The notes under the pieces were generated by a model. That model did no database searches. It was not told the origin of the DNA and saw nothing but the letters and a program-made list of their open reading frames with translations. DNA of 64,000 nucleotides from an archaeon (GTDB lineage Archaea > Nanobdellota > Nanobdellia > Pacearchaeales > DTIR01): positions 21,265 to 85,264 of the forward strand of contig JAZDNM010000007.1 of NCBI GenBank assembly GCA_043799715.1. Reading direction: 5' to 3'. The translations under genes were made by a program, and so were the position numbers. Shown here in pieces: positions 3,883 through 30,422 of the stretch. Numbering within the stretch: position 1 is the stretch's first letter; every line of letters begins with the position of its first letter.

Positions 3883-4455
3883 TTACGGACGTTTCCATGC
3901 TATTTCGTAATAGGTCACATCGTTCTCATCATCTACAATTGCTATGAGAAGATTTTTCTTTGTTGAGTGCGCAACCCTGTTTTTTGCCGCGAATTCATGC
4001 CATGTAAGCCCTGCTGACTCAAACACGGGATAAAGTATCCACTTGGCATGATCCTCCCCAGGCTTTACGCCTCTTTCATAAACCCTGAAATCAGCCCCAA
4101 ACTTCAATGCGGTTTTCAGGATATAGCCCCTGTTTCTCATGTCCTTGAAAACAACAAATCTTGTATGGAAATTATTCTCAATCAGCTGGGCTTCATGAGT
4201 AAATGCATTCATGCTTAATTTTTTATTTGCCTTGTATGCCTGAATCCTGCCCTTTTCCAGCAGATACTGCGCCTCAACAATAGAGTAGTATATCTTGCCC
4301 TCTTTTGGCTCGCCGAACCTGCTTGACTCATAAAGCGAAAAAGCTTCCTTTGAATTTGAAAAAATTCTTCCGCCTTCAAAAACAGCCCTGAAAACTCTGC
4401 CCCTATCAGGAGTTTTTGCTGAACTGGCTTTTGCATTAGTTTTTTTTGCTTTCAT
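3883..4455 (-). CDS. endA: tRNA-splicing endonuclease (short, homotetramer-type size)
   Basis: 190 aa with FKDMRNRGYILKTALKFGADFRVYERG...HAKWILYPV. A TTTAAATAT box starts 29 nt before the ATG. Confidence 0.85.
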   Translation of the reverse strand: MKAKKTNAKASSAKTPDRGRVFRAVFEGGRIFSNSKEAFSLYESSRFGEPKEGKIYYSIVEAQYLLEKGRIQAYKANKKLSMNAFTHEAQLIENNFHTRFVVFKDMRNRGYILKTALKFGADFRVYERGVKPGEDHAKWILYPVFESAGLTWHEFAAKNRVAHSTKKNLLIAIVDDENDVTYYEIAWKRP

Positions 4456-4475
4456 AAGATTATCATGCTCAAATG

Positions 4476-4532
4476 ATATTTAAATCTTGTTCCAAAAAAC
4501 ATCCTTTGTTGAGTTCCAAAAGGTATTTAAGA
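4476..4532. promoter_or_regulatory. Divergent promoter pair for endA (-) and RNase Z (+)
   Basis: TTTAAATAT (minus strand, 4476-4484) and TATTTAAGA (plus strand, 4524-4532) each start exactly 29 nt upstream of their ATG (4455 and 4553). Confidence 0.6.
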
Positions 4533-4552
4533 ATGCAGGGCTTTTCCTGATT

Positions 4553-8107: not shown

Positions 8108-8129
8108 TCTGGTGCATTAAGTGTCCATA
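8108..8129 (+). repeat. Left terminal inverted repeat TCTGGTGCATTAAGTGTCCATA
   Basis: It is the exact reverse complement of 12618-12639. The TTCTG-TGCA core resembles IS6-family ends (GGTTCTGTTGCAAAGT). Confidence 0.85.
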
Positions 8130-8174
8130 ATCATGGCTTTTTTATGAGAAAAGAAGATAGAAATAATTGAGAAA

Positions 8175-9281: not shown

Positions 9282-9291
9282 AAAGAATTAT

Positions 9292-10440: not shown

Positions 10441-10464
10441 GATTAATTATTGGTTTTCCCATTT

Positions 10465-11418: not shown

Positions 11419-11528
11419 GATTTCAAATAACCCATACTGTCTTATAAAACGCCTATTAATTACATAAAGACATAGTCATTTTGCTACAAACCGAAAGACT
11501 TAAATAGTATGGTTAATAATATAACTAT

Positions 11529-12293: not shown

Positions 12294-12321
12294 TGCTCAT
12301 CGGTGAGAAATATAGGGACAC

Positions 12322-12365
12322 CACGAGGATTTGCTTGTTGTTTCCAAGCAAGTAAAATCCTCGTG
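12322..12365. terminator. Bidirectional hairpin between convergent island genes
   Basis: cacgaggatttgcttg (12322-12337) pairs with caagc...aaaatcctcgtg (12345-12365) around a 7-nt loop. Confidence 0.5.
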
Positions 12366-12389
12366 TCTATATTTATATTATTATAATGC

Positions 12390-12557
12390 TTATTCTTTTA
12401 AATCTTTTTCTAAACATATTTTTTCGTGATTGACCGTTACTTTTAACTCCTTACCTAATAACTTAGATTGTTCAACAATATCTTTAGGCAAGATGACAAT
12501 ATAGCGGTTATAGGTTTTATCACCAACTTTCTTGTCTAAAACTTCCCGTATTTTCAT
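12390..12557 (-). CDS. AbrB/SpoVT/MazE-like small DNA-binding protein (55 aa, below the ORF-track cutoff)
   Basis: My own translation is MKIREVLDKKVGDKTYNRYIVILPKDIVEQSKLLGKELKVTVNHEKICLEKDLKE. The ...IVILPKDIVEQ...G.EL.V pattern fits swapped-hairpin AbrB-type domains. Confidence 0.45.
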   Translation of the reverse strand: MKIREVLDKKVGDKTYNRYIVILPKDIVEQSKLLGKELKVTVNHEKICLEKDLKE

Positions 12558-12617
12558 AATATAATCATGTGCATGAATTATTTAAATCTGTCGGTACATG
12601 AACAAAAACAAATTACA

Positions 12618-12639
12618 TATGGACACTTAATGCACCAGA
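12618..12639 (-). repeat. Right terminal inverted repeat (reverse complement of 8108-8129)
   Basis: TATGGACACTTAATGCACCAGA is followed 3 nt later by the direct repeat TCTGATAGG. Confidence 0.85.
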
Positions 12640-12714
12640 GAGTCTGATAGGCAATTTTTATATAGTGAAGCCTTCTTTAGAAAAGAAGCTTTGGGAAGAA
12701 AACCCAAGGAAAAT

Positions 12715-12861
12715 GCGGAGGTGCCGGAGCGGCCAAACGGGCTAGCCTTAGGAGAGAGCATTTCTTTTCAGAGAAAAGAAATGCTCGGCAAAGAAAAGCT
12801 TCAATAATCTCAGAAAGCTAGTGGCTTAGTGCCTGCATAGGTTCAAATCCTATCCTCCGCA
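12715..12861 (+). tRNA. tRNA-Leu (anticodon UAG) with 63-nt intron at 37/38 (12753-12815)
   Basis: Acceptor GCGGAGG/CCTCCGC, anticodon stem CTAGC/GCTAG, loop CTTAGG-intron-A, a long variable arm and T-arm ATAGG-TTCAAAT-CCTAT. The mature length is 84 nt. Confidence 0.85.
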
Positions 12862-12873
12862 TAATCTATAAAA

Positions 12874-15800
12874 TCACGCAAATGCGCTTATTGATTGGGA
12901 GATGGCTGAAGCAAGCTGGATTTTTTCAGATTCCTGGGAAATTTTTTCCATATCATCCTTGTTGCAGATGAATGCAGGTTCTGTAAGCACAGCAGGCATG
13001 TTTGTGTTCTTGAGAACATACAGGCTGCCTTCTGCGGCTTCTGTGTCAGGCTTGATGCCCCTGTCTTTCACACCCAAACTGGCTACAATATTCTCCTGGA
13101 CTATCCTGGCAAATTCCTTTCCTTTTGTGGAAGTTCTGTAATAGAATGTTTCGGCTCCATTCGCAGAGCAGTACTTTCCATCAACATCCAATGATGCAGA
13201 ATTCATGTGAATGCTGACAAAGATATCCGCTTCAAAATCATTTGCGATTTTTACTCTTGAAGCAAGAGAAACAGCAGCGTCAGTTTCTCTGGTCATTTTT
13301 ACGCTGTATCCTTTTTCTTCAAGCACGCTCTTTAATTTTTCTGCTATTGCCAGATTCATGTCTTTTTCATTTACTCCGTCGCTGTTTACAGCGCCAGGGT
13401 CTGTTCCGCCGTGCCCCGCATCTATCACAATCTTCTTGCTGGCACTCTGGGCTGCTGCAGCGGCAGCAGCTGCGTTTGCTTGTTGGCTTGATGAAGCAAT
13501 ATAATAATATGCTTTCCCGATTTTCTTTACATATGCCTTTGCGCTGTCCCCATTCTGTTTCAAGAAGGGATTCTTGCAGGAGGAAATATCCTTGCTGCAG
13601 TATGTTGAAACATAAGTAGGGCCTTCCTTGTAAGCTGCAATAGCAAGCCCGATATTGCTGAACCTTCTCATATTGCAGGCGAGATATGCTATGCCGCCCT
13701 GGATGTTCTGCTCTGTATTGTACTTGTTTATCGACAGTATCCCCATTGTTTTTGCGCATGCCCCGCCATTCTTGAAATCATTCACAACTGTGTCCTTGAG
13801 CTGCATCAAGCCGTAAGCGCCTGTGCTTGACTGCTCCTTTACATCCCAGCTGCTTTCAACTTCTATGAATGCCCTTGCAAGATTAAAATTCACATCATAC
13901 TGCTTTGCATATTTGTCAATGAGAATATAAATTGCCTGCCTGCTCTGGAATGTGCTTTCAGATTTTGAATTCAGCATATCAGAGGCGCTGTAATCTTTTC
14001 TTATTATAATGCAAATCTCGCTGTTTGAAACCGCAGCGCCTGTTATCCCGGAATTATCTGCATCAATATCTATGCAGACAACATTATCAGGGGTTTCAGT
14101 GTTCTCAGAACCCTCAACTAAATTTTTTTTTTCCTCAGAAACAATGCATTTTGAGCCAGTCCACTGGCAGTTCTCAACAGAGCATTTGTTGCTCTCGCAT
14201 TCAATCTGGTTGTTAAAATTAGAGCATTCCATGCCATCTTCGCAATTAAGGCACGCTGCCTTGATTAATCCCTTTTGAATGTAGCATCTGCCTAATTCAT
14301 GGCATTCACTGTAACTACAGGTATTGAAAATGCCGTCGCTGCATGAAACGCAGTTTGCCTTGATTGTTCCAGGGCTTATTTTTGTGATTTCAGCCACTTC
14401 TTTCTTTGATGTTTTTTCAAGCTGTATGCTCGCCACATTCTCACGATACTTTGCGACCACTAAAGTCATAAGAAGATAATCCCCACTTTCATCCAAATCA
14501 AACTGCTGCTGAATATTCATTTCCAAAATTATTTCCCTGCCGCCAAGTGAGATTTTTGCACCATCTTTCACTGACAACTCCTTCAGCAAAATAGGATACT
14601 CCTTGCTGTTGAATGAAAGAATCTTTTCTGTATTGAGTTCCAAATCAGTGTACTCTGTGCTTGATTCCTTTATCTCGGTTGCCTCAACAGATTTCTTTTT
14701 TTCTGAAGAAACAAGACTCTTTTCTATTTTTGCCTTGAAAATCAATGTTGTTATTCTGTCAAATATCTCAGCAAGCCCTATTCTTGCCTGCGCTTTGTCC
14801 TGATTAAACAAGGATTTCAGGATTATATTCTCATATTGCCCTGTCACATTTGCTATTGCGCTGTTTATTTCCTGCGCTGTTTTGTCTGCTGTGTAGGACT
14901 TGCCGACAATGAGCTTTTCAAGAATTCCATTGTCTTTTGTCAGTTCATACTGTTTCTGGCTTACCTCTGCAAGCAAAGCCTGGCTTCCAGAGTGATCAAG
15001 CATGCTTGTATTCTGCAATGTTGATGCCAGTTCCTTTGCTTTTGCAAGAGTCTCGGAAAGCAAGCCCTGGTCTGTAAAGCTCTGATTTAGCGAGAGAGTA
15101 TCAAGCCAGCATATTATTTTCTTGTCAGTGCAATAGCCCACCTGTTTCCATCTGTCTGGCTGTGTTGTCAGGCTCGGGTTGTCTGTTGTGCACACTCTGA
15201 TAATGCCTAAGCTTGAAATTGACGGGGATAATGCTGATTCCACAGATGACTGCAGATTTAATGATGAAACTGATACAATCCCTGATGTCCCTGCTATGCA
15301 TTCCTGCTCTGTTTTTACCTGCTGCGCTGCCTGCGCAGCAAGATAAGAGTCCTGCAGTTCATTCATGAAATAGGATGTTGTAACCTGCCCGAAGCCGCAT
15401 TCCTCCTGCGCATTTATCTTTACGCATAATTCTGTATATCCTGAAGGCCCTGTGAAATCAACTGACTTGTCAACCTGCTCGCCTTTTGCAATGTAGCCGA
15501 CTGCATTAGGCACAGCCATCTGCTGCATCTGCGCATAATATTCTGTCTGCGGCGACCCTTTCAGATACACATTGTAGTAAGCCCCTGCATCCTTGCCTGC
15601 ATAAATCCTGTAATAAACTTTGTAATGGGATGTTGAAGGCACAGTCGCCTCTGAAAGAATATTCGAGGAGAATGTTGCGTGGAACTGCACAGGGCTTTCA
15701 GGCTCGAGAAGTGAATCGAACATGTCTGATGTTGTTGGATATCTTGCAGAGACCCATGCCTTGCAGATTTCTGTTCCTGCCGCCTCTGTGCTTCTTGCCT

Positions 15801-18800
15801 GGAATGCATTAAAAGCATTTGCGCCATAATAATTTGTAAAGTAATTCACTGAGTCCTGCGCTTTCTGCCATGAGTCCTGCACAAACAGATACTCCCCTCC
15901 GCCGCGCGCGGTGCTTTTTCCTGACATGGTTTCAAGCAGCGACGGAATTCCAACCTTGGCTAAAGGCGCTGCCTGCTTCCAGAAAAATTCGCATAGATAA
16001 ATGGATTTAATCTGGTCGCAGATCCCCACATTTCTGCCTGTTGCAAGATTTTCCTGAAGGCAGTCCCTGACTGCTTTCTGTATCATCACAAAATTATCCA
16101 ATCCTGCATGAACCCCTGTAAGGCAGATTGGAACAATTATCCCCTCTCTTGCATTCGGCAGGCACAGCGCAATGCTGCCTATGATTCCTGTCTGCACAAC
16201 ATCTGCAACAGGATACTTGCCCCCAAAATCGCATCTTGATGAAGGGCATAAAACAGGGTCGCATAAATTAAACATTGTATGGCAGTCTTTTGGTGACATG
16301 AAATCCTCGCATTCATACTGGGGAACTGTAACTGCAGGCTTTCCTCTTGAAAATGACTGCCCTCCAACAGATATGCCTCCTTTGTTCTTGTACTGCCTTG
16401 CAGCTTCAAGCAGATACTGCCTTGCGAGTTTTATCATGTCTGCTGAATTGGGTATTGATGAATAGGTATTTTCAGACATTCCTGTCTGCATGCTGAATTG
16501 AATGCACGGCTTGTCATCCCCATGCCCTGTTGATTCCCATTCTTCCAAGCCATCGCCATTAACATTGCAAATCCAGTAGCTTACAGGCATTCCTGATTCA
16601 GTGTAGGATTTTGTGCTTGAAGTGCCTAAGCTGGATGGCTCGGTTGCGGCATACCATCCGTCTTTTGCATATTTGCCAAGAGGGAGTATGGCAGGCAGCC
16701 CTGCATAAGAGCCTGTCTCCCAGAATTTTACAGCAGGATTTTTGTAAGGATTTGAATATGTTGATGCTGCTGTTATTTCAGCGTATGAAGTTCCAAGGCT
16801 GCTTAAGATTTTTCTCTTGTTCTCCCCTGCAAGTTCATCTCCTATTTTCAATGCACCACTACTGCTAGAGATTTCATAAATTTTAGAAAAGCTGTAGCCC
16901 TGCCCGATAGAATCAAGCACTGCTATATAACTGATGCCCTGCGCAGTGAAAACCGCTGCTTTCTGCCCCTGCGAGATGCTGACGCCCTGCATTTTGCTGT
17001 AATCAGCTTCCTTGACAATATTTTTGTCAGAGAAGGATATTGCCTTGCTCTGGTCCCCTACAAGGGTGCTTTCAACATCTATCCCTGCTGCCTGGAAGAT
17101 ATTTGTTGCTTCTGTGCTTGCCTTGGTGGTTGTTAAAATCTTGTTCCAGTAATTTGCATCATCATAAAGCTTCTGCTGCGAAGCCTGGCACATTGCATCA
17201 GACAGCTTTTTATCAGTACATGCCTGCTGCATTTCAAGATTGAACAATGAATCCCTTACATCAGTTGATGAAAGATAATTCTTGTCCTCAAGAACCTTAA
17301 TATTCCCCTCGCTGAAGACATCCCCTGCTTTCAGCTCAGTGCCATCCCTTGACTTGAATGTAACATCCTTGTACTCATCAAAATATGTCTGGGATTCCTG
17401 GACATATTTTTCCTGGTTTACATATTCCTCTCCGAATGCTCCAAGAACTCCCTCTTTCTTTTCAACAACACCTGCGGTTTTCTTTATTGTGTCTGCTTTG
17501 GAATTTACATTCTTGTAAATGCCCTGTATTGTGCTGACAGAGCTGTCAATTGCGTCTGCATTCTTGTAATAGCAGTCATGGAATGTGCTGTATTTGCCTT
17601 CTGCAACCCCTGACTGGCATATTGGCTCCCAGTATTTCATTGCCTCTGTTCTCGCAAGGCTGCTGCCGCTGCCTGCACCCAGATTATTGAAGAAATTTTT
17701 CACAACAAAATATGCGCTGCCAGCAAAGCATGTGCCTTTCCATACCTTAATGATACTCCCAAGATTATCAACAATCTTCTCCCATTTTGCAATTGAATCG
17801 TTAAGCTCGCTTATCAATTCCTGGGTTTTTTCAGTGCTGAGCTGTATCGACCTTTTCTCAATCCCAATCTTAAATGTGAAATTTGCCTGTGTCTGGGCTC
17901 TTGCAATCATTGGAGAGATAGTCACTGATGCATCTTTTTTCAGGTTTATCTTGCTGACTCTCAAGTCAACTAAGATTTCTTTTGAGGCATCCTTTACAGA
18001 AAGCTTCACTGAATCTTTTTCCTTTACTTTCACTGTAATCGGGTTGCCAGCCTTGTTTTGATAGGAAAATTCAACATAATCCTCTGCAATGCTCAAAACA
18101 GACAATGTCCCTGAGACTGCCTCGTTCTCGCTGTAAGCTTCTGTATTGCCATTAACCATCAAGTCAGCGGACTTCTCGTCCCTGCTCACTTCCTTTATGT
18201 CCTCAAGAACAGCATAATAGCTTCCGCTTGAGGCAGAGATGAATGCTGAAGACAAGCTTAAATCGTGGATTTTCATCAGCTCAAGCTGCTGGCTTGCCTG
18301 TTCTGCGATTCCTGAGCCAGAATAGTCCTTTGCAATCCTGTTAAGCAAATCCTCCTGTGTCTTGAACTTTTTCAAATTTCCAGCAAGCTCTGCTGCCTTG
18401 TACAGCGCATCAGCGCCGTAATATTCCGGCTTTGCACCTTCCTGCTGGGATTTTTTCTCAGAACCATACTGCTCTGAAACTTTTTTGTAATCAGCCAAAG
18501 ATTCAGAGAAATATTCCTCAAGAAGTTTGCCAAAATCATCAGAGTTGTAATTTTTTTCAACAGAGCCTGTCAGCTTGTCAAATGTGAAATAATAGTCCCA
18601 GACAAAAGTGCCCTGCCCTGTTTCCGACGCTGTAATAATCCTGAATTCCGCGTCCTTTCCGAGATAATCTTTGAGCCCTTTTTCAACGCTTGTGTCGCAG
18701 CCGCTCAGGCATTTGATATCCTCTCCAAATTTTGAAGAGCCTTTAATCAGTGTGCTGAATATGTTGAAAAGCGAGTACTTCTTGCCTTTCAGGAGGCTGT

Positions 18801-20052
18801 TTACTACTATATTGAAGTTGTCGAAATAATCGCTCTTTATTGTGTCTGCCTTGACAATCACAACAAAATCCTGATTGAGATTTTTTAGATAAGAGGAAAT
18901 TGCATTTGATGTGCTGCCGATATATGCAAGATATACATTCTGCCCTGAAACAATCTTGTCTCCTGTCTTGAATTCATTTGATGCAATCTCATTCTTTGCA
19001 GAGTCCCTGATTGTCAATCTTGCTTTTGGAGGGTCAATTGAGAGAGTTGTCGGCTGTGAGTCCTTGCAGTTTACTGTCACCTTTCCTCCGCCGACAATAT
19101 TCTGCTCTATATTTGAAATCCAGCATTCATCATCCAAAAATCTCTGCCCTTTTGAAAGCCATAATTCATCGTCGCCAATCCTCACCTTTGCCTTCATTTC
19201 CGGATAGTTGATGCTGTTCAGATTAACTTTCAGCGCAGCAGAGCAATAGTATCCGGGCAGATAGATTTCATTTGAACTCTGCCCTGCCCTTAATGTAACA
19301 GAAGTCAACTGAGTTACTGCATCAGTGTATATCGCAATCTTAACATATTCTCCTGCAGAATCTTTTCCTATCTCCAATGCCCTCAAATACGCCTTTCCGT
19401 TCCAGAATGAATACATTTTGTAATATTGTTTCCATTCCTCCTCGCTCAGCACAGGCAGCAGGAATCCTGCTTTCCCAACTCCAAACGCTTTTTCTGCATT
19501 ATACTGTATCAGGGCTGTTAAATTTGCCTCAACCCACTCAGTCATATTCTTTTCAATCGGCTGATTTTTTAATATCACAACAAGATACCCCAGATTATTC
19601 AATACAGGGCTGCCGAGCAGCTGGGTTCCCCATGTTGTCAGGGCTGCTCTTGCAGGATGAAATCCTATCCCTGCAATATCTTTTGACAACTGCTGCCCCT
19701 TGAATGAGATTGATGTTATTTCAGGGACTTCTATCAAAGGATTAATTTTTATTCCAGTAAGCTGGCAGAAAACCGGGACATCCTGCTCCTCAAGCAAATC
19801 GCTTCTGACAACTGCAGGCGAACAGCTTCCAGGCAAAATCTGCAGGATGAAATCCTGCCTTGCGAGGCACTGCTCCTGGCTGAATGCAGGCCAGTATGTA
19901 TCAATTGAATTTGAGTAATATGAAAGCGGAGAAGGGGAATAGCTGTATGTTGCTGCATATGCTGCTGCAGAGATTATTGCTGCAAAGAAAATGAAAGCAA
20001 AAGCTAACAGTATTCTGCATTTGCCTATTTTAATCAAATCTGTTTTTCTCAT
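12874..20052 (-). CDS. Giant secreted protein (2392 aa) with C-terminal lytic transglycosylase (SLT/GH23) and N-acetylmuramoyl-L-alanine amidase (Amidase_3) domains
   Basis: N-terminal signal ...LLAFAFIFFAAIISAAAYA. SLT motifs are FIEVESSW, GAYGLMQL and AIAAYKEGP (about nt 13501-13938). An Ala8 linker follows. Amidase_3 motifs are IVIDAGHGGTDPGA, VSIHMNS and GAETFYY (about nt 12877-13437). A 12-Cys module lies at about nt 14140-14358. Confidence 0.9.
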   Translation of the reverse strand: MRKTDLIKIGKCRILLAFAFIFFAAIISAAAYAATYSYSPSPLSYYSNSIDTYWPAFSQEQCLARQDFILQILPGSCSPAVVRSDLLEEQDVPVFCQLTGIKINPLIEVPEITSISFKGQQLSKDIAGIGFHPARAALTTWGTQLLGSPVLNNLGYLVVILKNQPIEKNMTEWVEANLTALIQYNAEKAFGVGKAGFLLPVLSEEEWKQYYKMYSFWNGKAYLRALEIGKDSAGEYVKIAIYTDAVTQLTSVTLRAGQSSNEIYLPGYYCSAALKVNLNSINYPEMKAKVRIGDDELWLSKGQRFLDDECWISNIEQNIVGGGKVTVNCKDSQPTTLSIDPPKARLTIRDSAKNEIASNEFKTGDKIVSGQNVYLAYIGSTSNAISSYLKNLNQDFVVIVKADTIKSDYFDNFNIVVNSLLKGKKYSLFNIFSTLIKGSSKFGEDIKCLSGCDTSVEKGLKDYLGKDAEFRIITASETGQGTFVWDYYFTFDKLTGSVEKNYNSDDFGKLLEEYFSESLADYKKVSEQYGSEKKSQQEGAKPEYYGADALYKAAELAGNLKKFKTQEDLLNRIAKDYSGSGIAEQASQQLELMKIHDLSLSSAFISASSGSYYAVLEDIKEVSRDEKSADLMVNGNTEAYSENEAVSGTLSVLSIAEDYVEFSYQNKAGNPITVKVKEKDSVKLSVKDASKEILVDLRVSKINLKKDASVTISPMIARAQTQANFTFKIGIEKRSIQLSTEKTQELISELNDSIAKWEKIVDNLGSIIKVWKGTCFAGSAYFVVKNFFNNLGAGSGSSLARTEAMKYWEPICQSGVAEGKYSTFHDCYYKNADAIDSSVSTIQGIYKNVNSKADTIKKTAGVVEKKEGVLGAFGEEYVNQEKYVQESQTYFDEYKDVTFKSRDGTELKAGDVFSEGNIKVLEDKNYLSSTDVRDSLFNLEMQQACTDKKLSDAMCQASQQKLYDDANYWNKILTTTKASTEATNIFQAAGIDVESTLVGDQSKAISFSDKNIVKEADYSKMQGVSISQGQKAAVFTAQGISYIAVLDSIGQGYSFSKIYEISSSSGALKIGDELAGENKRKILSSLGTSYAEITAASTYSNPYKNPAVKFWETGSYAGLPAILPLGKYAKDGWYAATEPSSLGTSSTKSYTESGMPVSYWICNVNGDGLEEWESTGHGDDKPCIQFSMQTGMSENTYSSIPNSADMIKLARQYLLEAARQYKNKGGISVGGQSFSRGKPAVTVPQYECEDFMSPKDCHTMFNLCDPVLCPSSRCDFGGKYPVADVVQTGIIGSIALCLPNAREGIIVPICLTGVHAGLDNFVMIQKAVRDCLQENLATGRNVGICDQIKSIYLCEFFWKQAAPLAKVGIPSLLETMSGKSTARGGGEYLFVQDSWQKAQDSVNYFTNYYGANAFNAFQARSTEAAGTEICKAWVSARYPTTSDMFDSLLEPESPVQFHATFSSNILSEATVPSTSHYKVYYRIYAGKDAGAYYNVYLKGSPQTEYYAQMQQMAVPNAVGYIAKGEQVDKSVDFTGPSGYTELCVKINAQEECGFGQVTTSYFMNELQDSYLAAQAAQQVKTEQECIAGTSGIVSVSSLNLQSSVESALSPSISSLGIIRVCTTDNPSLTTQPDRWKQVGYCTDKKIICWLDTLSLNQSFTDQGLLSETLAKAKELASTLQNTSMLDHSGSQALLAEVSQKQYELTKDNGILEKLIVGKSYTADKTAQEINSAIANVTGQYENIILKSLFNQDKAQARIGLAEIFDRITTLIFKAKIEKSLVSSEKKKSVEATEIKESSTEYTDLELNTEKILSFNSKEYPILLKELSVKDGAKISLGGREIILEMNIQQQFDLDESGDYLLMTLVVAKYRENVASIQLEKTSKKEVAEITKISPGTIKANCVSCSDGIFNTCSYSECHELGRCYIQKGLIKAACLNCEDGMECSNFNNQIECESNKCSVENCQWTGSKCIVSEEKKNLVEGSENTETPDNVVCIDIDADNSGITGAAVSNSEICIIIRKDYSASDMLNSKSESTFQSRQAIYILIDKYAKQYDVNFNLARAFIEVESSWDVKEQSSTGAYGLMQLKDTVVNDFKNGGACAKTMGILSINKYNTEQNIQGGIAYLACNMRRFSNIGLAIAAYKEGPTYVSTYCSKDISSCKNPFLKQNGDSAKAYVKKIGKAYYYIASSSQQANAAAAAAAAQSASKKIVIDAGHGGTDPGAVNSDGVNEKDMNLAIAEKLKSVLEEKGYSVKMTRETDAAVSLASRVKIANDFEADIFVSIHMNSASLDVDGKYCSANGAETFYYRTSTKGKEFARIVQENIVASLGVKDRGIKPDTEAAEGSLYVLKNTNMPAVLTEPAFICNKDDMEKISQESEKIQLASAISQSISAFA

Positions 20053-21938
20053 TTGAATGAAATATCAATTCCGCTTTCTTCAGCCAGAATGTATGCGCTC
20101 TGCAATTCATCAACACTCTTGGGAGTTTGTATGTATGAGGCCGTAATGCTCATTTTCCTTGAATTTGCGAGAATACTTGCTGTTAAATATTCTGCCCTGC
20201 TTCCTCCTCCTGATATAACCTGTGAAAGAGTCTGCGCAGGCAGCTCTATATCATAGCATTGTTCATTCTGGAATCCGAAAAAGCCTGCTATGCCCCTTGC
20301 AGGAGCTTTAACGCACTGCTGTGTCTTGTAGCTGGCAATTTCAATTTTGCCCTGCCTGAAAATCTGCACAGAAATATTGTAATAGCCCTCTTTGAGCTGG
20401 ACTGTTTTCTGCAGAGGATACATAATACTTTCAGTCTCGTCCCCTGAATCAAATGTTATGAATGCCTGCTCGTCTTTTGACAATGGAACCCCGCCTGCAT
20501 TCACATCAAGCGTTAAATTATACAATGGCTGCATCACAATTTCTGCGCTGCCCTCCTGATTTGTGCTGAACTGCAGTTTTGCATCAGCATATCCTGCTGC
20601 CGAGGCAATGATAAAACCGTTAACGCACTGGGGAAATTTCCCTTCAAGCTCTGCTGTTGCCCCGGAAATTTTTGTCCTGCCAATCTCACACTCCTCATTG
20701 AAGCACTTTAATTTTATGTCTGCCTCAACAGGCTCAAGCCCTATATCAAATGTTGAAACTTTTACAGGAGTTGTCTTGTATTTGCATAATTCGGATTCTT
20801 GCTGCTGCGTAATCTCGCTTAATACAGCGTTTCTTGGCATGTTCTTGCTTATCACAACAAGCACTGGAAACTGGAAAAACTCTGATTCATCAAAAATCTG
20901 GATTAAAACAGGGAATGCAATATCATAAACAAAATGGTACTGGACATAGCAGAATCCAAGAATCCCCAAACCCTGCTGCATTCCGATTGGCTTTGCAATA
21001 AGCATCTCCCCATTATCGCTTTCTTCAGAATCCCCTGAAACCTCAAACCTCATCGGGAAACTGCTTGAGTACATGAAGTTAATATTTTCAGAAACCCTCG
21101 CTGCATTGTCAACAACAAAATACTTGTTTCTTGAGTCAGCAAGGCTGTAATAACTGCCCTTGAGCTTCAATGATGCGATGTTTGCTGAAACAGCATTCTG
21201 CAAGTCCTGCATTATCCCTGATTTCAGCCATGTTTTCGGCGCGCAGTTCAGCTCAACATCGCTTACAGGGGCATAAAGGCTGAGCACATCAATTGTGTAG
21301 TTCTCAAGGAACAGTTCATCCTGCTGCTGGTTATAGATTTTGACAGCAAGATTGTAGAACTTTCCAAGATTGCTTTTTATCTCTGCTCTGTGCCTTGAAA
21401 GTTTTGCTTTAGTATTCCCCTTGCTGACTACAAGCCCTGCATCAACCTCCGCTGAGATCATGCTATCCTTGATGCTTACTGATGCCTTTGCATTTTCCCG
21501 CGCAACAGAATATCCCTGCAATTCAAAATCTGAAAAGCTGCATTTTGCAATCTCTTCCTGGATATACTGGGCAAGCTGTTTTTGCATTTCTGCAATAGAA
21601 GGCACCTGCTGCCTTGCGATGTTGTTTCCTGAAATGTAAAACCAGTAAGGCACTGCATTGCCAAAGAAATCAAGCTGGGAGGAGAAGGGCATATAGGAAG
21701 AGCCTTTTTCAAATGAGGGGGGATAAATATATCCTGCCTGCGCTCCAAGCATTGCACTTCCTTCCTGAAGCTTTTCCTTAATGCATCCTGTAAAATAATT
21801 TTCAATCGGCTGAAATTCAGCCGGAACTGCAGTTGGCATGCTTCTCAAATAATAGAAAAGCCCGACTGAGCCGACTATCAATACGGAGATTATAACAAAA
21901 ATCGTAACCTGTGCTTTTTTGTTCTTTAAAGTGTTCAT
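20049..21938 (-). CDS. Hypothetical 629-aa protein with prepilin-like (class III) signal, translationally coupled to the giant gene
   Basis: The start is chosen at MNTLKNKKAQVTIFVIISVLIVG (21938) because the longer ORF start at 21995 would include TATA-like sequence. Its stop overlaps the giant gene ATG as ATGA (20049-20052). Confidence 0.7.
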   Translation of the reverse strand: MNTLKNKKAQVTIFVIISVLIVGSVGLFYYLRSMPTAVPAEFQPIENYFTGCIKEKLQEGSAMLGAQAGYIYPPSFEKGSSYMPFSSQLDFFGNAVPYWFYISGNNIARQQVPSIAEMQKQLAQYIQEEIAKCSFSDFELQGYSVARENAKASVSIKDSMISAEVDAGLVVSKGNTKAKLSRHRAEIKSNLGKFYNLAVKIYNQQQDELFLENYTIDVLSLYAPVSDVELNCAPKTWLKSGIMQDLQNAVSANIASLKLKGSYYSLADSRNKYFVVDNAARVSENINFMYSSSFPMRFEVSGDSEESDNGEMLIAKPIGMQQGLGILGFCYVQYHFVYDIAFPVLIQIFDESEFFQFPVLVVISKNMPRNAVLSEITQQQESELCKYKTTPVKVSTFDIGLEPVEADIKLKCFNEECEIGRTKISGATAELEGKFPQCVNGFIIASAAGYADAKLQFSTNQEGSAEIVMQPLYNLTLDVNAGGVPLSKDEQAFITFDSGDETESIMYPLQKTVQLKEGYYNISVQIFRQGKIEIASYKTQQCVKAPARGIAGFFGFQNEQCYDIELPAQTLSQVISGGGSRAEYLTASILANSRKMSITASYIQTPKSVDELQSAYILAEESGIDISFK

Positions 21939-22022
21939 TTGACGAAGCAAGAGCAATAAAAAATAGAGCCGAAAGCCATATTTAAATTTTGTCAAAATTG
22001 CCTTAAAACATGGGAATTAGAA

Positions 22023-22158
22023 TGAGCCCGACAGGATTCGAACCTGTGATCTTCTCTATTCTGAGTTTCTTCTCGGTTTTTCTCTTTCCGAGGTTTCTCT
22101 TTTTCTAAAAGAGAAAACTCACGTCAAAGAGACGTCTTAACCACTGGACTACGGGCTC
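22023..22158 (-). tRNA. tRNA-Val (anticodon GAC) with 63-nt intron at 37/38 (22059-22121)
   Basis: Acceptor GAGCCCG/CGGGCTC, anticodon stem TCTCT/AGAGA, loop TTGACG-intron-T and T-arm ACAGG-TTCGAAT-CCTGT. Confidence 0.85.
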
Positions 22159-22262
22159 ACGTCAAAGCAAGAAATGCTCTGGTTTAAAATATTTGCTTTT
22201 TCAGCTTTGTGTAATTTATCAATAAAAATAAAATTTATAAATCTGACTGCTGTAGAATAATC

Positions 22263-22595
22263 ATGAAAAAAAGGTGCTGCAGGAGGTTATATCCCTTCAT
22301 TGTCATATTTTTGGCAATTGGCGTGTTGATATCCCTTGCTGTATTCACAGCAAGAACTGTCGAAACTTTGATGAGTGTTGAGGAGGCTATAGCTATAGCG
22401 CAAAACACCGAATGCACTGAAAAGGGCATGCTGACACAAGACAGCTTTTACAACCCAAATTCAAAGACGTGGTGGATTAGCCTGGAAATGAATCCTGAAT
22501 TCAGGAGCGAGATATGCAATCCTGCATGCGTTATTGATGCTGTGCAGAAAACCGCAGAGATAAACTGGAGATGCACTGGCTTTATTTCTGAGTAA
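22263..22595 (+). CDS. Hypothetical small membrane-anchored or secreted Cys-containing protein
   Basis: 110 aa with an N-terminal hydrophobic helix. A TTTATAAAT box starts exactly 29 nt before the ATG. Confidence 0.55.
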   Translation: MKKRCCRRLYPFIVIFLAIGVLISLAVFTARTVETLMSVEEAIAIAQNTECTEKGMLTQDSFYNPNSKTWWISLEMNPEFRSEICNPACVIDAVQKTAEINWRCTGFISE

Positions 22596-22597
22596 GT

Positions 22598-22972
22598 TTA
22601 TTTGCTTCTGCCTCTTATCTTAATCCCTTTCTTTCTCAGCTCATCTGTCTTTTTCTTTGAGCAGTCCATGCACAGGAATATTGGCTTTTCATTTCTCTTG
22701 TCATAATTTGGCGCGAGAACTAATCTCCACAAGTGCGCTTTTTTGCCGCAGTTGTCGCATCTACCTTCCTTGACGTGCCACATTTCTATTGCTTTTGAAG
22801 TAAAGATAAACTTGTCAACCCAGAAAAATATCATGCCCCCAATCAGGTTTGCAATGACAGTAGACCAGAACCCGACTCCAAGCTGTTTCACAGCAAGATA
22901 AAGAATCGGCGTGCTTAACTGCCATCTTACAAGATACAGAATAAATTTTCTTATTCCTGCAGCCATTTTCAC
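22598..22972 (-). CDS. Hypothetical membrane protein (GtrA-like helices) with C-terminal zinc ribbon
   Basis: 124 aa with two or three predicted TM helices, followed by CDNCGKK...CMDCSKK. Confidence 0.45.
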   Translation of the reverse strand: MKMAAGIRKFILYLVRWQLSTPILYLAVKQLGVGFWSTVIANLIGGMIFFWVDKFIFTSKAIEMWHVKEGRCDNCGKKAHLWRLVLAPNYDKRNEKPIFLCMDCSKKKTDELRKKGIKIRGRSK

Positions 22973-23106
22973 CTCTCTTTGCGAAAAAAGAAATGATGGT
23001 TTAAAAAACTAATGAACCATAAGAGTGTTAAGTTTTAGGGATTAAACTTTTCTAATACAGTTTAAAGTTTATTATGTTCTAAGAATAGGAGAATAAGGAT
23101 ATCTTA

Positions 23107-23592
23107 TTATAACTTTTCTACCTTATCACAACCATAATTCTCTCCTATCAGTTGATAAAATTGCTTATCCATATCTCCAGGCTCGAGGTTAGCTTTAGTT
23201 ACCTTAACCTTGTCTCCTACATTCAAAAGATTGTCGTAGGCTGCCCCGTAATAATCTATAGAAAATACTTTTTCTTTACCATCATCACTTTTTACTGTGA
23301 AAACATACCTATCATGATCACTATGCCCCCCATTTCCCCCCCCAAAAATGTAAGCATTACCAAAACCAGTTGGTATAGGGATAGCTAATCCACTAACATC
23401 CCCCTGTGCTTTTCCTTCTATATCTTCTGTTTTGTAATATGCTTCTTTCACAATTCTCCCTTCCAAAGTTAAATCTTTTAATGATTGCCCATGGGAATAA
23501 CAAAGTCCTCCCATAGCTATTAAACCCGTTGCCAAACCTATCTGTATGATGTTCTCTCCTACATATGTAGCTATTTTTTTAAGTTTATTCAT
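23107..23592 (-). CDS. Hypothetical membrane-anchored protein
   Basis: 161-aa ORF with an N-terminal hydrophobic segment and a Gly-rich patch (GGGNGGHSDHD). Confidence 0.45.
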   Translation of the reverse strand: MNKLKKIATYVGENIIQIGLATGLIAMGGLCYSHGQSLKDLTLEGRIVKEAYYKTEDIEGKAQGDVSGLAIPIPTGFGNAYIFGGGNGGHSDHDRYVFTVKSDDGKEKVFSIDYYGAAYDNLLNVGDKVKVTKANLEPGDMDKQFYQLIGENYGCDKVEKL

Positions 23593-23679
23593 TTTTACAA
23601 ATCTCTTAAAAAATAGCAGTTAGAATGACTATTTAAATATTTCTATTTGTAACTACTTTAAAATAACAAATGATAGGTA

Positions 23680-23797
23680 AGCCTCCAGCAGGATTTGAAC
23701 CTGCGACCCTCTGTTTTTTTAGTTTTCTTTTCCGAGGTTTTCTTCCCAAGAAAAGCTCTTACAAAACAGATGCTCTAGCCAACTGAGCTATGGAGGC
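23680..23797 (-). tRNA. tRNA-Thr (anticodon UGU) with 44-nt intron at 37/38 (23716-23759)
   Basis: Acceptor GCCTCCA/TGGAGGC, D-arm GCTC-AGTTGGCTA-GAGC, anticodon stem TCTGT/ACAGA and T-arm GCAGG-TTCAAAT-CCTGC. Confidence 0.85.
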
Positions 23798-23911
23798 ATC
23801 AGAAACCAGGGTTTCCGATACCTTCCTTAAGAAAAAACTGATGTTTTTAAGTATTTTGGAGGCTTTGTCTTGTTCGGAAATGTTTTTATATATTAATAGT
23901 GTCATGCCTTG

Positions 23912-30313: not shown

Positions 30314-30422
30314 AGCCCCATAGTACAGCGGTCCAGTATGATGCCCTTTGGAGGAAGGTATCGGAAACCTTGGTTTCTGATGAAGAAAGGCATAGACCCA
30401 GGTTCGAATCCTGGTGGGGCTA
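30314..30422 (+). tRNA. tRNA-Gln (anticodon UUG) with 36-nt intron at 37/38 (30352-30387)
   Basis: The acceptor pair is AGCCCCA/TGGGGCT, with the A1:U72 pair typical of archaeal tRNA-Gln. Anticodon stem is ATGCC/GGCAT and T-arm is CCAGG-TTCGAAT-CCTGG. Confidence 0.85.

What the first reader, a model, noticed from the sequence alone, without database searches (positions are those of the whole stretch)
12753..23759. Homologous long introns in three different tRNA genes (Leu, Val, Thr)
Seen in the sequence, written in tRNA sense. The Leu intron is agagagcatttcttttcagagaaaagaaatgCTCGGcAAAGAaAAgcttcaataatCTCAGAA. The Val intron is tgagttttctcttttagaaaaagagaaacCTCGGaAAGAGAAAaaccgagaagaaaCTCAGAA. 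The Thr intron is agagcttttcttgggaagaaaacCTCGGaAAAGAAAActaaaaa. All three begin with (a/t)gag and contain a perfect A/T-rich ttctt...aagaa hairpin followed by a CTCGG-A-rich block. The Leu and Val introns are both exactly 63 nt and both end in CTCAGAA. Inference: these introns share ancestry and were copied between non-homologous tRNA genes, as has been proposed for intron gain in some crenarchaea.
Basis: partly seen in the sequence, partly recalled or inferred. Interest (0 to 1): 0.6.

Follow-up and report, generated by a model that had tools for sequence, protein, structure and literature searches.

The report
Repeat-element introns in DPANN tRNA genes
Three tRNA genes of a tiny groundwater-type archaeon are each interrupted by a copy of one small structured repeat, which also sits in ribosomal RNA genes and between genes in related archaea and so suggests how such introns arise.

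Summary
The three strings lie exactly where stated, as position-37/38 introns of tRNA-Leu(UAG), Val(GAC) and Thr(UGU) in a Pacearchaeota-like DPANN archaeon. Their similarity is not just composition (shuffle p about 0.003 or less). A covariance model built only from unrelated metagenomic copies finds four window hits: the three introns and the Leu 5' leader (32-49 bits; next best 18).

They belong to a widespread element: RAGC(C), pyrimidine arm, loop, purine arm, CCUYGG, then a purine tract that mirrors the purine arm. The hairpin, its basal RAG:CUY helix (A-U 65, G-C 59, Fisher 2e-35) and the mirror tract all covary.

At least 120 metagenomic contigs carry it, in tRNA introns at several positions, archaeal 16S and 23S rRNA, tRNA leaders and trailers, and just after stop codons. 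Inside RNA genes it was seen only in sense orientation.

The two closest relatives have an identical tRNA-Thr with no intron, and orthologous Val and Leu genes lack these introns, so they were gained. A catalytic splicing endonuclease is encoded in the window.

The family is shared, but the source need not be another tRNA gene. How the element spreads and what the mirror repeat does (possibly a triplex) remain unknown.

The parts
12715..12861 (+). tRNA-Leu(UAG) gene. Exon 1 is 12715-12752, the intron 12753-12815 (63 nt) and exon 2 12816-12861.
   Evidence: Rfam tRNA 43 bits; aragorn with introns allowed; sequence read.
12755..12797 (+). Repeat element inside the Leu intron. Basal GAGC 12756-12759; pyrimidine arm ATTTCTTTTC 12760-12769; loop 12770-12772; purine arm GAAAAGAAAT 12773-12782; GCTC+GG 12783-12788; mirror tract CAAAGAAAAG 12789-12798.
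   Evidence: Model R1 hit, 37.0 bits, E 1.8e-7; 14-bp hairpin in the minimum-energy fold, z -4.8; arms parsed.
12799..12815 (+). Host-specific 3' segment of the Leu intron. TCAG (12810-12813) pairs with loop positions 32-35 (CUUA) at 3 of 4 positions. AA (12814-12815) is part of the 3' bulge.
   Evidence: Bulge-helix-bulge scoring. The one mismatch sits where UCAG would fit a GAN-anticodon loop perfectly.
12667..12703 (+). Fourth element copy, in the 5' leader of tRNA-Leu just downstream of a TATA-like box. Arm CTTCTTT 12672-12678; loop 12679-12681; arm AAAGAAG 12682-12688; CTTTGG 12689-12694; mirror tract GAAGAAA 12695-12701. CCCAAGG (12703-12709) pairs back with CTTTGGG.
   Evidence: R1 hit, 31.9 bits, E 5e-6; two-hairpin fold.
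22023..22158 (-). tRNA-Val(GAC) gene; the intron is 22059-22121 (63 nt).
   Evidence: Rfam tRNA 54.9 bits; aragorn Val(gac) with a 63-nt intron.
22078..22121 (-). Element in the Val intron, read on the minus strand. Bulge T 22121; GAG 22120-22118; arm TTTCTCTTTT 22116-22107; loop 22106-22104; arm AAAAGAGAAA 22103-22094; CCTCGG 22093-22088; mirror tract AAAGAGAAAA 22087-22078. The 3' segment is 22077-22059, with TCAG at 22064-22061 and AA at 22060-22059.
   Evidence: R1 hit, 32.6 bits, E 3e-6; central helix 4/4 pairs and anticodon stem 5 bp.
23680..23797 (-). tRNA-Thr(UGU) gene; the intron is 23716-23759 (44 nt).
   Evidence: Rfam tRNA 59.3 bits. The three-way alignment with L001 and L254 shows a clean 44-nt insertion.
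23716..23759 (-). Complete short-form element that makes up the Thr intron. Bulge A 23759; GAG 23758-23756; C 23755; arm TTTTCTT 23754-23748; loop GGG; arm AAGAAAA 23744-23738; CCTCGG 23737-23732; mirror tract AAAAGAA 23731-23725; AAC; TAAA 23721-23718, pairing with loop UUUG; AA 23717-23716.
   Evidence: R1 hit, 49.3 bits, E 6e-11; central helix 4/4.
23798..23827 (-). 5' leader of tRNA-Thr. It carries a 30-nt copy of the tRNA-Gln intron that is absent from the leaders of L001 and L254.
   Evidence: Best inverted repeat in the window: 31 nt, 97% (I1).
30352..30387 (+). Intron of tRNA-Gln(UUG) (gene 30314-30422). This is a different hairpin family and the source type of the Thr leader insert. 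The shared stretch starts at intron nucleotide 1.
   Evidence: The same intron is present in L001 with a compensatory change.
22156..22180 (-). 5' leader of tRNA-Val, running into the first 3 nt (GAG) of the tRNA. AGAGCATTTCTT (22169-22180) equals the 5' half of the Leu-intron element. CTTTGACGT|GAG (22156-22167) duplicates the Val exon-1/intron junction at 22118-22129.
   Evidence: Each 12-mer occurs exactly twice in the window; in 100 shuffles none had two or more matches for either 12-mer.
3883..4455 (-). tRNA splicing endonuclease (EndA), catalytic-type subunit, 190 aa.
   Evidence: Pfam tRNA_int_endo, C-terminal domain 3e-26 and N-terminal domain 1e-10. Best solved relative is the N. equitans alpha subunit 3IEY_A, 1e-35. 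The Tyr, His and Lys of the catalytic motifs align.

Best explanation
The three introns are endonuclease-type (bulge-helix-bulge) introns at position 37/38. The body of each is one copy of a dispersed, structured repeat of about 37-45 nt found in Pacearchaeota/Woesearchaeota-type archaea.

Element anatomy: 5'-R-A-G-C-(C), pyrimidine arm, 2-4 nt loop, purine arm, C-C-U-Y-G-G, then a second purine tract that is the mirror image of the purine arm.

Proposed working. The element sits in tRNA sense with RAG starting at the first or second intron nucleotide in most genes examined (the fourth in the window's Leu intron). Its long hairpin then takes the place of the outer helix (h') of the splicing motif. 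A short gene-specific 3' segment completes the motif: 4 nt complementary to anticodon-loop positions 32-35, followed by AA. The EndA encoded in the window would cut in the two 3-nt bulges and a ligase would join the exons.

The copies were gained by insertion in this lineage. They come from a pool of elements that also populates rRNA genes, tRNA leaders and trailers, and gene ends.

Shown here: family membership, covariation of the structure, absence from orthologous genes in relatives, presence of an EndA gene, and sense-only orientation in RNA genes.

Inferred: that the introns are actually spliced, that the element is mobile (mechanism unknown, but linked to transcription direction), and that the mirror tract forms a purine-motif triple helix with the hairpin, or H-DNA in the duplex.
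For: Family membership: the independent model R1 finds exactly four window copies at 32-49 bits, against 18 bits for the next hit. Controls reach at most 22.7 bits.

Structure: 9 of 11 hairpin pairs show compensatory changes, 97% of cells are paired, and 0 of 500 shuffles reach the observed values. The 5' R against the linker Y gives A-U 65, G-C 59, G-U 1, A-C 0, Fisher 2e-35.

Mirror tract: identity to the mirrored purine arm is 96%, against 82% for a direct copy and 82% for permuted pairings (maximum 83.8% in 200 permutations), over 140 copies with 49 distinct arms. Parallel-order covariation gives 130 double-change cells against 62 +/- 11, with 0 of 500 shuffles reaching it. The window's Val, Leu and Leu-leader copies were not selected by the search pattern and obey the same rule.

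Copies lie inside archaeal 16S and 23S rRNA genes. Twenty-seven tRNA-associated copies are in sense; the four antisense copies lie outside the tRNA body in the two cases read by eye. Twenty-five of 140 copies follow a same-strand stop codon within 25 nt, 20 of them at 2-6 nt, against 5% expected.

Gain: L001 and L254 have the empty Thr site, and Val and Leu orthologs lack these introns.

Splicing motif: the central helix has 4/4 pairs in Val and Thr and 3/4 in Leu, and the anticodon stem gives 5-6 bp. Clear canonical motifs appear in the metagenomic tRNA copies. EndA.
Against: In the strict register the outer helix h' has only 1-2 bp in the window introns. Using the element hairpin as h' leaves 17-30 unpaired nucleotides between h' and the central helix, which is not a canonical motif.

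No target-site duplication, clear terminal repeats or associated transposase was found.

Metagenomic copies were collected with a pattern that fixes part of the hairpin and linker. The large alignment was fitted to the model. The two RAG/CUY classes could partly reflect two lineages rather than many independent changes.

Purine-motif triplexes are, to my knowledge, established for DNA but not for all-RNA strands. The confirmed basal helix leaves only GG as a linker, which is tight geometry.
Confidence: 0.7

Rival explanations
1. Safe-haven model. Short introns already existed at 37/38 in these tRNA genes. The dispersed repeat later landed inside them, because introns, leaders and trailers are among the few dispensable sequences in a compact genome. 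The element did not create the introns.
For: The element is also common in tRNA leaders, trailers and intergenic spots that are removed or neutral. Relatives do carry short, unrelated introns: L003 tRNA-Thr(UGU) has a 15-nt intron at 37/38, and the window's CAU tRNA has a 20-nt intron. The gene-specific 3' segments are well adapted to each host loop.
Against: Both nearest relatives have no Thr intron at all, and the window differs from them by one clean 44-nt insertion that begins at GAGC. A two-step history is therefore less parsimonious. The same holds for Val and Leu orthologs. This model does not explain why no antisense copy is seen inside RNA genes.
Confidence: 0.2
2. Functional-module model. 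The element is a host-encoded signal kept at each place by selection for that function. It could be a transcription terminator or pause site with T-tracts on both strands, an RNA 3'-end or processing signal, or a protein-binding site. The similarity of the introns would then reflect common function rather than selfish spread.
For: The element is enriched immediately after same-strand stop codons (18% against 5% expected) and directly after tRNA 3' ends (7 cases). The structure is strongly conserved, with covariation, an invariant C.C mismatch and an invariant GG. T-tracts are present on both strands.
Against: A terminator or pause site inside tRNA anticodon, D and T loops and inside 16S/23S rRNA would be harmful. 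Distribution between related genomes is patchy: none in L001-L009 and L011-L014, four or five copies in L010 and four in the window. Orthologous sites are empty. Tandem arrays and up to six copies in 14 kb look like proliferation.
Confidence: 0.15
3. The similarity is chance resemblance of low-complexity A/G-rich and T/C-rich sequence.
For: The sequences are of low complexity. A loose motif (GAAA..CCTYGGRAA..GAAAA) hits 119 unrelated viral contigs by chance.
Against: Dinucleotide-shuffle tests reject it. An independent covariance model separates the four window copies from everything else. None of the 119 chance hits has the hairpin. Three independent covariation signals are present.
Confidence: 0.01
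4. Vertical inheritance. An ancient intron family was present in the ancestor's tRNA genes and was lost repeatedly in relatives.
For: Intron loss is easy, and the tRNA-Gln intron is indeed conserved between the window and L001.
Against: It requires independent precise losses in L001, L254, L002, L003 and L005 for several genes. It cannot explain copies in non-homologous tRNAs, at different tRNA positions, in rRNA and in intergenic DNA. L010, a distant relative (46% SRP54 identity), has the family in tRNA-Gln, where the window has an unrelated intron.
Confidence: 0.04

Closest known systems
[quoted passage not shown] 2010, Mol Biol Evol 27:2233, as summarised in PMC4090602)
   Same: [quoted passage not shown] They were gained late, and the splicing motif limits where they survive. 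The mechanism is unknown in both cases.
   Different: The lineage differs: a DPANN archaeon whose EndA most resembles the N. equitans alpha subunit, not a crenarchaeon. The intron body is a defined structured repeat that also occurs in rRNA genes, tRNA leaders and trailers, after stop codons and in tandem arrays. It also carries a covarying mirror repeat. My literature searches found neither point described for Thermoproteales.
Canonical archaeal bulge-helix-bulge introns cut by EndA
   Same: Position 37/38, two 3-nt bulges, a 4-bp central helix built from loop positions 32-35, the anticodon stem as helix h, and an EndA gene in the genome.
   Different: The outer helix in the strict register is only 1-2 bp. 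A 10-14 bp element hairpin starts one to three nucleotides into the intron, and 17-30 unpaired purine-rich nucleotides separate it from the central helix. The introns are long (44-63 nt) compared with the 20-nt and 36-nt introns of other families in the same window.
Disrupted tRNA genes in DPANN with L3-loop EndA (Kaneta et al. 2018, PMC5829648)
   Same: That paper reports a marked increase of tRNA gene disruption in DPANN lineages, including a Pacearchaeota and a Woesearchaeota genome, and tRNA sets that could not be predicted completely.
   Different: In the passages I searched for DPANN, Woesearchaeota and Pacearchaeota, that paper classifies intron positions and enzyme types and mentions no shared intron sequence family or dispersed repeat.
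Miniature non-autonomous repeats: bacterial REP/BIME elements with RAYT transposases, MITEs, and eukaryotic introner elements (from my own knowledge)
   Same: A short hairpin-centred repeat, many copies per genome, patchy between relatives, found in intergenic DNA right after genes, sometimes in tandem. Like introners, copies inside genes are removed from the RNA.
   Different: No target-site duplication, no clear terminal inverted repeats and no linked transposase were found. Orientation follows the direction of transcription of the host RNA gene. Removal is by the protein endonuclease pathway, not by a spliceosome.
H-DNA and designed intramolecular purine.purine-pyrimidine triplexes (H-DNA reviewed in PMC11667243; designed triplexes from my own knowledge)
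   Same: A homopurine/homopyrimidine tract with a mirror repeat, in the order pyrimidine arm, purine arm, mirrored purine strand. This is the layout used for single-strand triplexes.
   Different: Here the feature is part of a natural dispersed repeat in archaeal RNA genes. Formation of a triplex is untested, and the proven basal helix leaves a very short linker.
Intron-like leaders of split and permuted tRNA genes; tRNA fragment scattering in Caldiarchaeum (PMC3293823, PMC4090602)
   Same: Intron-related sequence appears in tRNA 5' leaders (Leu, Val and Thr in the window). A duplicated tRNA 3' half lies next to element copies in L143.
   Different: The window genes are intact, not split or permuted. 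No recombinase-bearing element lies next to the copies.

Membership tests
Archaeal endonuclease-spliced (bulge-helix-bulge) tRNA intron | Removing the insert restores a canonical cloverleaf tRNA with a 7-nt anticodon loop | tested here: met
   The Rfam tRNA model spans each gene end to end with the insert in the anticodon loop. aragorn with introns allowed places an intron in all three genes but types only Val correctly. The anticodons UAG, GAC and UGU were read from the sequence.
Archaeal endonuclease-spliced (bulge-helix-bulge) tRNA intron | Two 3-nt bulges holding the splice sites, separated by a 4-bp helix | tested here: met
   Val 4/4 and Thr 4/4 pairs (each with one G.U); Leu 3/4.
Archaeal endonuclease-spliced (bulge-helix-bulge) tRNA intron | Flanking helices h and h' on both sides of the motif | tested here: inconclusive
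   Helix h is the anticodon stem, 5-6 bp. Helix h' in the strict register is only 1-2 bp. The element hairpin starts at intron nucleotide 2 and could serve as h', but with a long unpaired insert before the central helix.
Archaeal endonuclease-spliced (bulge-helix-bulge) tRNA intron | The genome encodes a catalytic splicing endonuclease | tested here: met
   ORF 3883-4455(-): Pfam tRNA_int_endo N- and C-terminal domains; PDB 3IEY_A 1e-35 with the Tyr/His/Lys motifs aligned.
Archaeal endonuclease-spliced (bulge-helix-bulge) tRNA intron | The intron is excised from the transcript | not testable with these tools
Transposed tRNA intron groups (as defined for Thermoproteales) | Introns more than about 70% alike in tRNA genes of different isotype | tested here: met
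   Leu-Val 70% global identity; Thr 84-86% over its own length; significant against shuffles. Borderline for Leu-Val.
Transposed tRNA intron groups (as defined for Thermoproteales) | Orthologous tRNA genes in related genomes lack the intron | tested here: met
   Thr: L001 and L254. Val: L001, L002, L003, L005. Leu: L003.
Transposed tRNA intron groups (as defined for Thermoproteales) | Belongs to the order Thermoproteales (Crenarchaeota) | tested here: not met
   The nearest relatives by SRP54 and S3Ae are Pacearchaeota/Woesearchaeota/Nanoarchaeia genomes. It works like that phenomenon but lies in a different phylum.
MITE-type miniature transposon | Target-site duplication flanking the insert | tested here: not met
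   The filled Thr site compared with the empty sites of L001 and L254 shows no duplication beyond an ambiguous run of A.
MITE-type miniature transposon | Terminal inverted repeats, and a related autonomous element with a transposase | tested here: inconclusive
   An RAGCC...GGCUY closure is seen only in some intron copies, for example L140. Ten large ORFs on element-rich contigs are housekeeping genes or have no Pfam match. The transposase-like ORF at 10465-11418 belongs to an unrelated island.
Mirror-repeat triplex-forming (H-DNA type) sequence | A homopurine/homopyrimidine tract with mirror symmetry | tested here: met
   96% identity to the mirrored arm, with covariation in parallel order.
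Mirror-repeat triplex-forming (H-DNA type) sequence | Physical formation of a three-stranded structure | not testable with these tools
   This needs melting, CD or NMR measurements, or chemical and nuclease probing.
Any curated RNA family (Rfam 15) | A match at or near the family gathering score | tested here: not met
   Only tRNA reaches threshold. All other matches over the elements lie far below their gathering scores.

The most novel reading that the evidence does not exclude
A family of tiny structured elements in DPANN archaea creates new endonuclease-type introns in tRNA and rRNA genes, making it an archaeal counterpart of eukaryotic introners. It inserts in the direction of transcription. 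Its conserved hairpin plus mirror-image purine tract forms an intramolecular triple helix that is needed for its spread or its processing.
Probability: 0.3. Interest if true: 0.9.

Novelty: new variant of a known kind. Interest (0 to 1): 0.72.

Why it matters
How archaeal tRNA and rRNA introns arise is an open question. Intron "transposition" has been inferred in Thermoproteales, but no vehicle or mechanism is known. This window, with its relatives, gives a concrete candidate vehicle: a sequence-defined, structure-constrained repeat. The Thr site is empty in the two nearest relatives. The element appears in sense orientation only inside RNA genes. The matching endonuclease gene lies on the same contig. 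Intron gain therefore becomes directly testable by an in vitro cleavage assay, a census of complete genomes and metatranscriptomes.

There is also a practical consequence for annotation. Default ARAGORN missed three of the seven window tRNAs (Leu, Val, Thr) and left two more untyped. The Rfam tRNA model at its gathering score missed most element-bearing tRNAs with non-canonical introns. This may help explain the tRNA-Val and tRNA-Trp genes reported as "missing" from Pacearchaeales and Woesearchaeales genomes in a 2026 preprint.

Finally, the mirror-repeat covariation is rare natural evidence for selection on a three-stranded or otherwise non-Watson-Crick arrangement.

Tried and rejected
- Default ARAGORN found none of the three genes. 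I used Rfam and aragorn with the intron option instead.
- A loose motif scan of viral contigs returned 119 hits, all of them chance matches in coding DNA. I kept them as a negative control.
- The look-up of encoding contigs for the window's own proteins found nothing on record.
- Brute-force in silico excision followed by aragorn was too permissive to fix intron boundaries. I replaced it with explicit scoring of the bulge-helix-bulge motif.
- The first MAFFT alignment of 70 copies mis-aligned the 5' arms. I replaced it with a gap-free subset and a hand-written structure.
- I tested whether the purine tail is an alternative Watson-Crick partner of the pyrimidine arm. This is rejected, because the antiparallel register gives C.A clashes in 37 copies.
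- I tested whether the sense orientation reflects replication-strand bias. This is rejected, because window copies lie on both DNA strands and follow the orientation of their genes.
- I considered whether the tRNA-Gln intron (CUGAUGA) is a C/D-box RNA. I did not pursue it: the intron is too short and Rfam gives no support.
- I searched with the C-terminus of the 2392-aa ORF to locate the Leu ortholog in L001. Only bacterial-type amidase domains came back.
- Seven literature searches found no description of this element.

Full report
**1. What is in the window**

Rfam finds seven tRNA genes. Five carry an insert in the anticodon loop:
- a CAU tRNA at 2296-2388, about 20 nt;
- Leu(UAG) at 12715-12861, 63 nt;
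- Val(GAC) at 22023-22158, minus strand, 63 nt;
- Thr(UGU) at 23680-23797, minus strand, 44 nt;
- Gln(UUG) at 30314-30422, 36 nt.

Default ARAGORN missed Leu, Val and Thr and left two other tRNAs untyped.

The organism is a DPANN archaeon of the Pacearchaeota/Woesearchaeota type. Its SRP54 is 74% identical to that of Pacearchaeota RIFCSPLOWO2_01_FULL_38_24 (locus L001). All other hits are Pacearchaeota, Woesearchaeota, Nanoarchaeia, one Aenigmatarchaeota genome or an unclassified archaeon. The S3Ae search gives the same picture. The window also encodes TFIIB, ribosomal protein S3Ae, a RecJ/Cdc45-like protein and other archaeal markers.

**2. Is the similarity real?**

Smith-Waterman scores were compared with 2000 dinucleotide-preserving shuffles.

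| Pair | z | Shuffles reaching the score |
|---|---|---|
| Leu-Val | 4.6 | 2 |
| Leu-Thr | 5.3 | 0 |
| Val-Thr | 4.0 | 5 |

The Gln and CAU introns of the same window show nothing against the three. Global identity is 70% for Leu-Val, and Thr matches the others over 84-86% of its length.

The strongest test used an independent model. I built covariance model R1 from 15 metagenomic copies only, with a hand-written structure, and searched the window and 14 loci from relatives. The window has exactly four significant hits:
- Thr intron, 49.3 bits;
- Leu intron, 37.0 bits;
- Val intron, 32.6 bits;
- a copy in the Leu 5' leader at 12667-12703, 31.9 bits.

The next window hit scores 17.7 bits. In 807 kb of viral control loci chosen because they contain the A-rich CCTYGG motif by chance, the best score is 22.7 bits.

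**3. Anatomy of the element**

Reading the contexts and parsing 140 copies gives this layout:

5'-R-A-G-C-(C), pyrimidine arm (for example UUUUCUUU), 2-4 nt loop, purine arm, C-C-U-Y-G-G, then a second purine tract.

Three separate covariation signals support it.

(a) The hairpin. Nine of 11 pairs show changes on both sides, 97% of cells are paired, and 0 of 500 shuffles reach the observed values. The alignment was fitted to the model, which favours pairing.

(b) A basal helix. The R of RAG pairs with the Y of CCUYGG: A-U 65, G-C 59, G-U 1, A-C 0, Fisher 2e-35. A nearly invariant C.C mismatch lies above this helix and an invariant GG follows it.

(c) The mirror tract. The 3' purine tract is the mirror image of the purine arm.
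- Identity to the mirrored arm is 96%, with 79% of copies perfect. Identity to a direct copy is 82%, and permuted pairings give 82% (maximum 83.8% in 200 permutations). This holds over 49 distinct arms.
- Put another way, the pyrimidine arm and the tail are complementary in parallel order. That gives 130 double-change cells against 62 +/- 11 expected, with 0 of 500 shuffles reaching it. The tail columns were unpaired in the model, so this signal was not imposed by fitting.
- The antiparallel register gives C.A clashes. An alternative Watson-Crick hairpin is therefore not what is conserved.

The window's Val copy (arm AAAAGAGAAA, tail AAAGAGAAAA), Leu copy (GAAAAGAAAT, CAAAGAAAAG) and Leu-leader copy (AAAGAAG, GAAGAAA) were not selected by the scan pattern. 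They obey the same rule.

No Rfam family matches the element.

**4. Where the element sits**

- Archaeal rRNA genes. Rfam confirms copies inside 16S (L146, L205) and 23S (L198 twice, L218, L178), all on the rRNA strand.
- tRNA introns. Copies occur at 37/38, for example in Gly(GCC), Pro(GGG), Val(GAC), Ala(UGC), Leu(UAA) and Ile(GAU). They also occur in D-loops, T-loops and the variable region.
- tRNA ends. Seven copies lie directly after tRNA 3' ends. A few lie upstream of tRNA 5' ends.
- Orientation near tRNAs. A strict T-arm test gives 27 tRNA-associated copies in sense. The 4 antisense copies lie outside the tRNA body in the two cases read by eye (L169, L172).
- After genes. Twenty-five of 140 copies follow a same-strand ORF stop codon within 25 nt, 20 of them at 2-6 nt, against 5% at random positions.
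- Arrays and density. Some copies form tandem arrays (L135, L177, L143). Some contigs carry up to six copies in about 14 kb.

Contigs rich in the element carry ordinary archaeal housekeeping genes and no obvious transposase. A strict bulge-helix-bulge motif is found for 12 copies, against 4 in a flank-shuffled control. The clear cases among them are copies in RNA genes, so the element does not carry its own complete splice motif.

Distribution is patchy. The window has four copies and L010 (46% SRP54 identity) has four or five, including a 62-nt tRNA-Gln intron that resembles the window's Val intron at z 9.5. L001-L009 and L011-L014 have none.

**5. Gain in this lineage**

Three-way alignment of the tRNA-Thr locus compares the window with L001 (S3Ae 66% identical) and L254 (71% identical, the closest relative on record). 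The exons are identical in L001 over the whole gene and in L254 over the 59 nt held before its contig ends (one difference, 3 nt from that end). The promoter region is conserved. The window has two clean extra blocks: the 44-nt intron, which can be written as starting exactly at GAGC, and about 22 nt in the leader.

The leader block is a 30/31 copy of the tRNA-Gln intron, and the copy begins at intron nucleotide 1 (I1). L001 has the Gln intron, with a compensatory change, but not the leader insert. The direction of copying was therefore from the Gln intron to the Thr leader.

tRNA-Val(GAC) has no 37/38 intron in L001, L002, L003 or L005. L001 has instead an unrelated D-loop intron. tRNA-Leu(UAG) is intron-less in L003.

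The Val leader is a mosaic. It holds a 12-mer identical to the 5' half of the Leu-intron element and a 12-mer that duplicates the Val exon/intron junction. All three genes therefore also carry intron-derived sequence in their leaders.

**6. How it most likely works**

With 37/38 boundaries, each intron has these parts:
- a 4-bp central helix between loop positions 32-35 and the four intron nucleotides before the final AA (Val UUGA:UCAG, Thr UUUG:UAAA, Leu CUUA:UCAG with one mismatch);
- two 3-nt bulges;
- the anticodon stem as the inner helix.

The outer helix in the strict register is only 1-2 bp. The element's basal helix starts at intron nucleotide 2 in Val and Thr, at nucleotide 4 in Leu, and at nucleotide 1 or 2 in the metagenomic tRNA introns. 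I therefore infer that the element hairpin serves as the outer helix.
- '(a/t)gag' is the bulge nucleotide plus the basal helix;
- 'CTCGG' is the other strand of that helix plus GG;
- the A-rich block is the mirror tract;
- 'CTCAGAA' is the complement of the loop plus the bulge.

Leu's UCAG would fit a GAN-anticodon loop (Val, Ile) perfectly but mismatches its own loop. This hints that the 3' end travelled with the intron from such a gene.

The window encodes a catalytic-type EndA at 3883-4455. It has the Pfam N- and C-terminal domains. Its best solved relative is the N. equitans alpha subunit, at 1e-35, with the Tyr, His and Lys motifs aligned. A metallo-beta-lactamase, possibly RNase Z, is transcribed divergently next to it.

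Published work reports that DPANN EndAs with an extra loop accompany increased tRNA disruption (PMC5829648).

**7. What remains unexplained**

The mirror repeat is the signature of a purine.purine-pyrimidine triplex on the sense strand, a pyrimidine-motif triplex on the antisense strand, or H-DNA in the duplex. To my knowledge all-RNA purine-motif triplexes are not established. The proven basal helix also leaves only GG as a linker.

The sense-only orientation inside RNA genes is not a replication-strand effect, because window copies lie on both strands and follow their genes. It points either to an RNA-linked insertion route or to selection against antisense copies.

No target-site duplication or transposase was found.

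**8. Comparison with what is known, and verdict**

The closest precedent is the intron transposition inferred for Thermoproteales (Fujishima 2010, summarised in PMC4090602). The window meets that pattern's similarity and empty-ortholog criteria but lies in a different phylum.

What is new here is that the intron body is a defined, covarying, dispersed repeat. It is shared with rRNA genes, tRNA flanks and gene ends, and it has a mirror-repeat architecture. Seven full-text searches found no description of it.

A 2026 preprint reports unexplained "missing" tRNA-Val and tRNA-Trp genes in these orders. Element-bearing tRNAs that escape standard detection could account for some of these.

I rate the finding as a new variant of a known kind, with interest 0.72.

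Noticed in passing
window 23798-23827 (-) and 30352-30382 (+): The 5' leader of tRNA-Thr carries a 30/31 copy of the tRNA-Gln intron, starting exactly at intron nucleotide 1. Both nearest relatives lack the leader copy, and L001 has the Gln intron. An intron sequence has therefore been copied to a non-intron site.
   Followed up: yes
window 22156-22180 (-): The tRNA-Val leader is a mosaic. One 12-mer is identical to the 5' half of the Leu-intron element. Another 12-mer duplicates the Val exon-1/intron junction and ends in the first three bases of the tRNA. Origin unexplained.
   Followed up: partly
window 8108-12639: A 22-nt perfect inverted repeat (8108-8129 and 12618-12639) brackets a low-GC (0.33) island. 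The island holds a GmrSD/HNH endonuclease, an EcoRI-type adenine methylase and a transposase-like ORF (InsA zinc ribbon plus rve_3). It lies directly upstream of the tRNA-Leu promoter and is probably a mobile restriction-modification island.
   Followed up: partly
window 3883-5446: The tRNA splicing endonuclease gene (3883-4455, -) and a metallo-beta-lactamase gene that may be RNase Z (4487-5446, +) are transcribed divergently. Two tRNA genes lie within 2 kb.
   Followed up: partly
window 12874-20052 (-): A 2392-aa ORF whose C-terminal part carries a bacterial-type N-acetylmuramoyl-L-alanine amidase domain. Best hits are bacterial, 39-45% identical over about 30% of the 600-aa query. A cell-wall hydrolase of this kind would fit an episymbiont lifestyle.
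   Followed up: partly
window 27400-27463 and 28332-28395: The adjacent FtsY and SRP54 genes share a 64-nt stretch that is 86% identical at the DNA level. That is high for such old paralogs and may reflect gene conversion.
   Followed up: no
window 4450-4487, 9261-9298, 11367-11420, 12548-12601: A repeated intergenic motif (TTTCATAAGATTATCATG...TATTTAAATCT, 68-81% alike) lies at several gene starts. It may be a shared promoter or regulatory box.
   Followed up: no
L143 1160-1546: Three tandem element copies and a duplicated tRNA 3' half (T-arm plus acceptor strand) lie just upstream of a tRNA-Pro that itself has an element intron. It looks like recombination between element copies scattering tRNA fragments.
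   Followed up: partly
L001 5121-5218 (-); L009 16250-16420 (+): The L001 ortholog of tRNA-Val has an unrelated intron of about 26-28 nt in the D-loop instead of the 37/38 intron. A tRNA-Gln in L009 appears to be interrupted at several places. Intron turnover is fast in this group.
   Followed up: partly
L162 100-334 (+): A group I intron match (Rfam 79.5 bits) lies at the 3' end of a 16S rRNA gene. On the same contig, the spacer tRNA-Ala carries an element intron.
   Followed up: no
L010 7208-7238 and 14308-14354 (+): Two element copies overlap predicted ORFs, one near the start of a 434-aa ORF and one at the end of a 169-aa ORF. The element may sometimes be translated or may supply a stop codon.
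   Followed up: no
window 23840-23870 (-) compared with L001 and L254: The window has an extra 18 nt (gaacaagacaaagcctcc) in the region upstream of the tRNA-Thr promoter, relative to both relatives.
   Followed up: no
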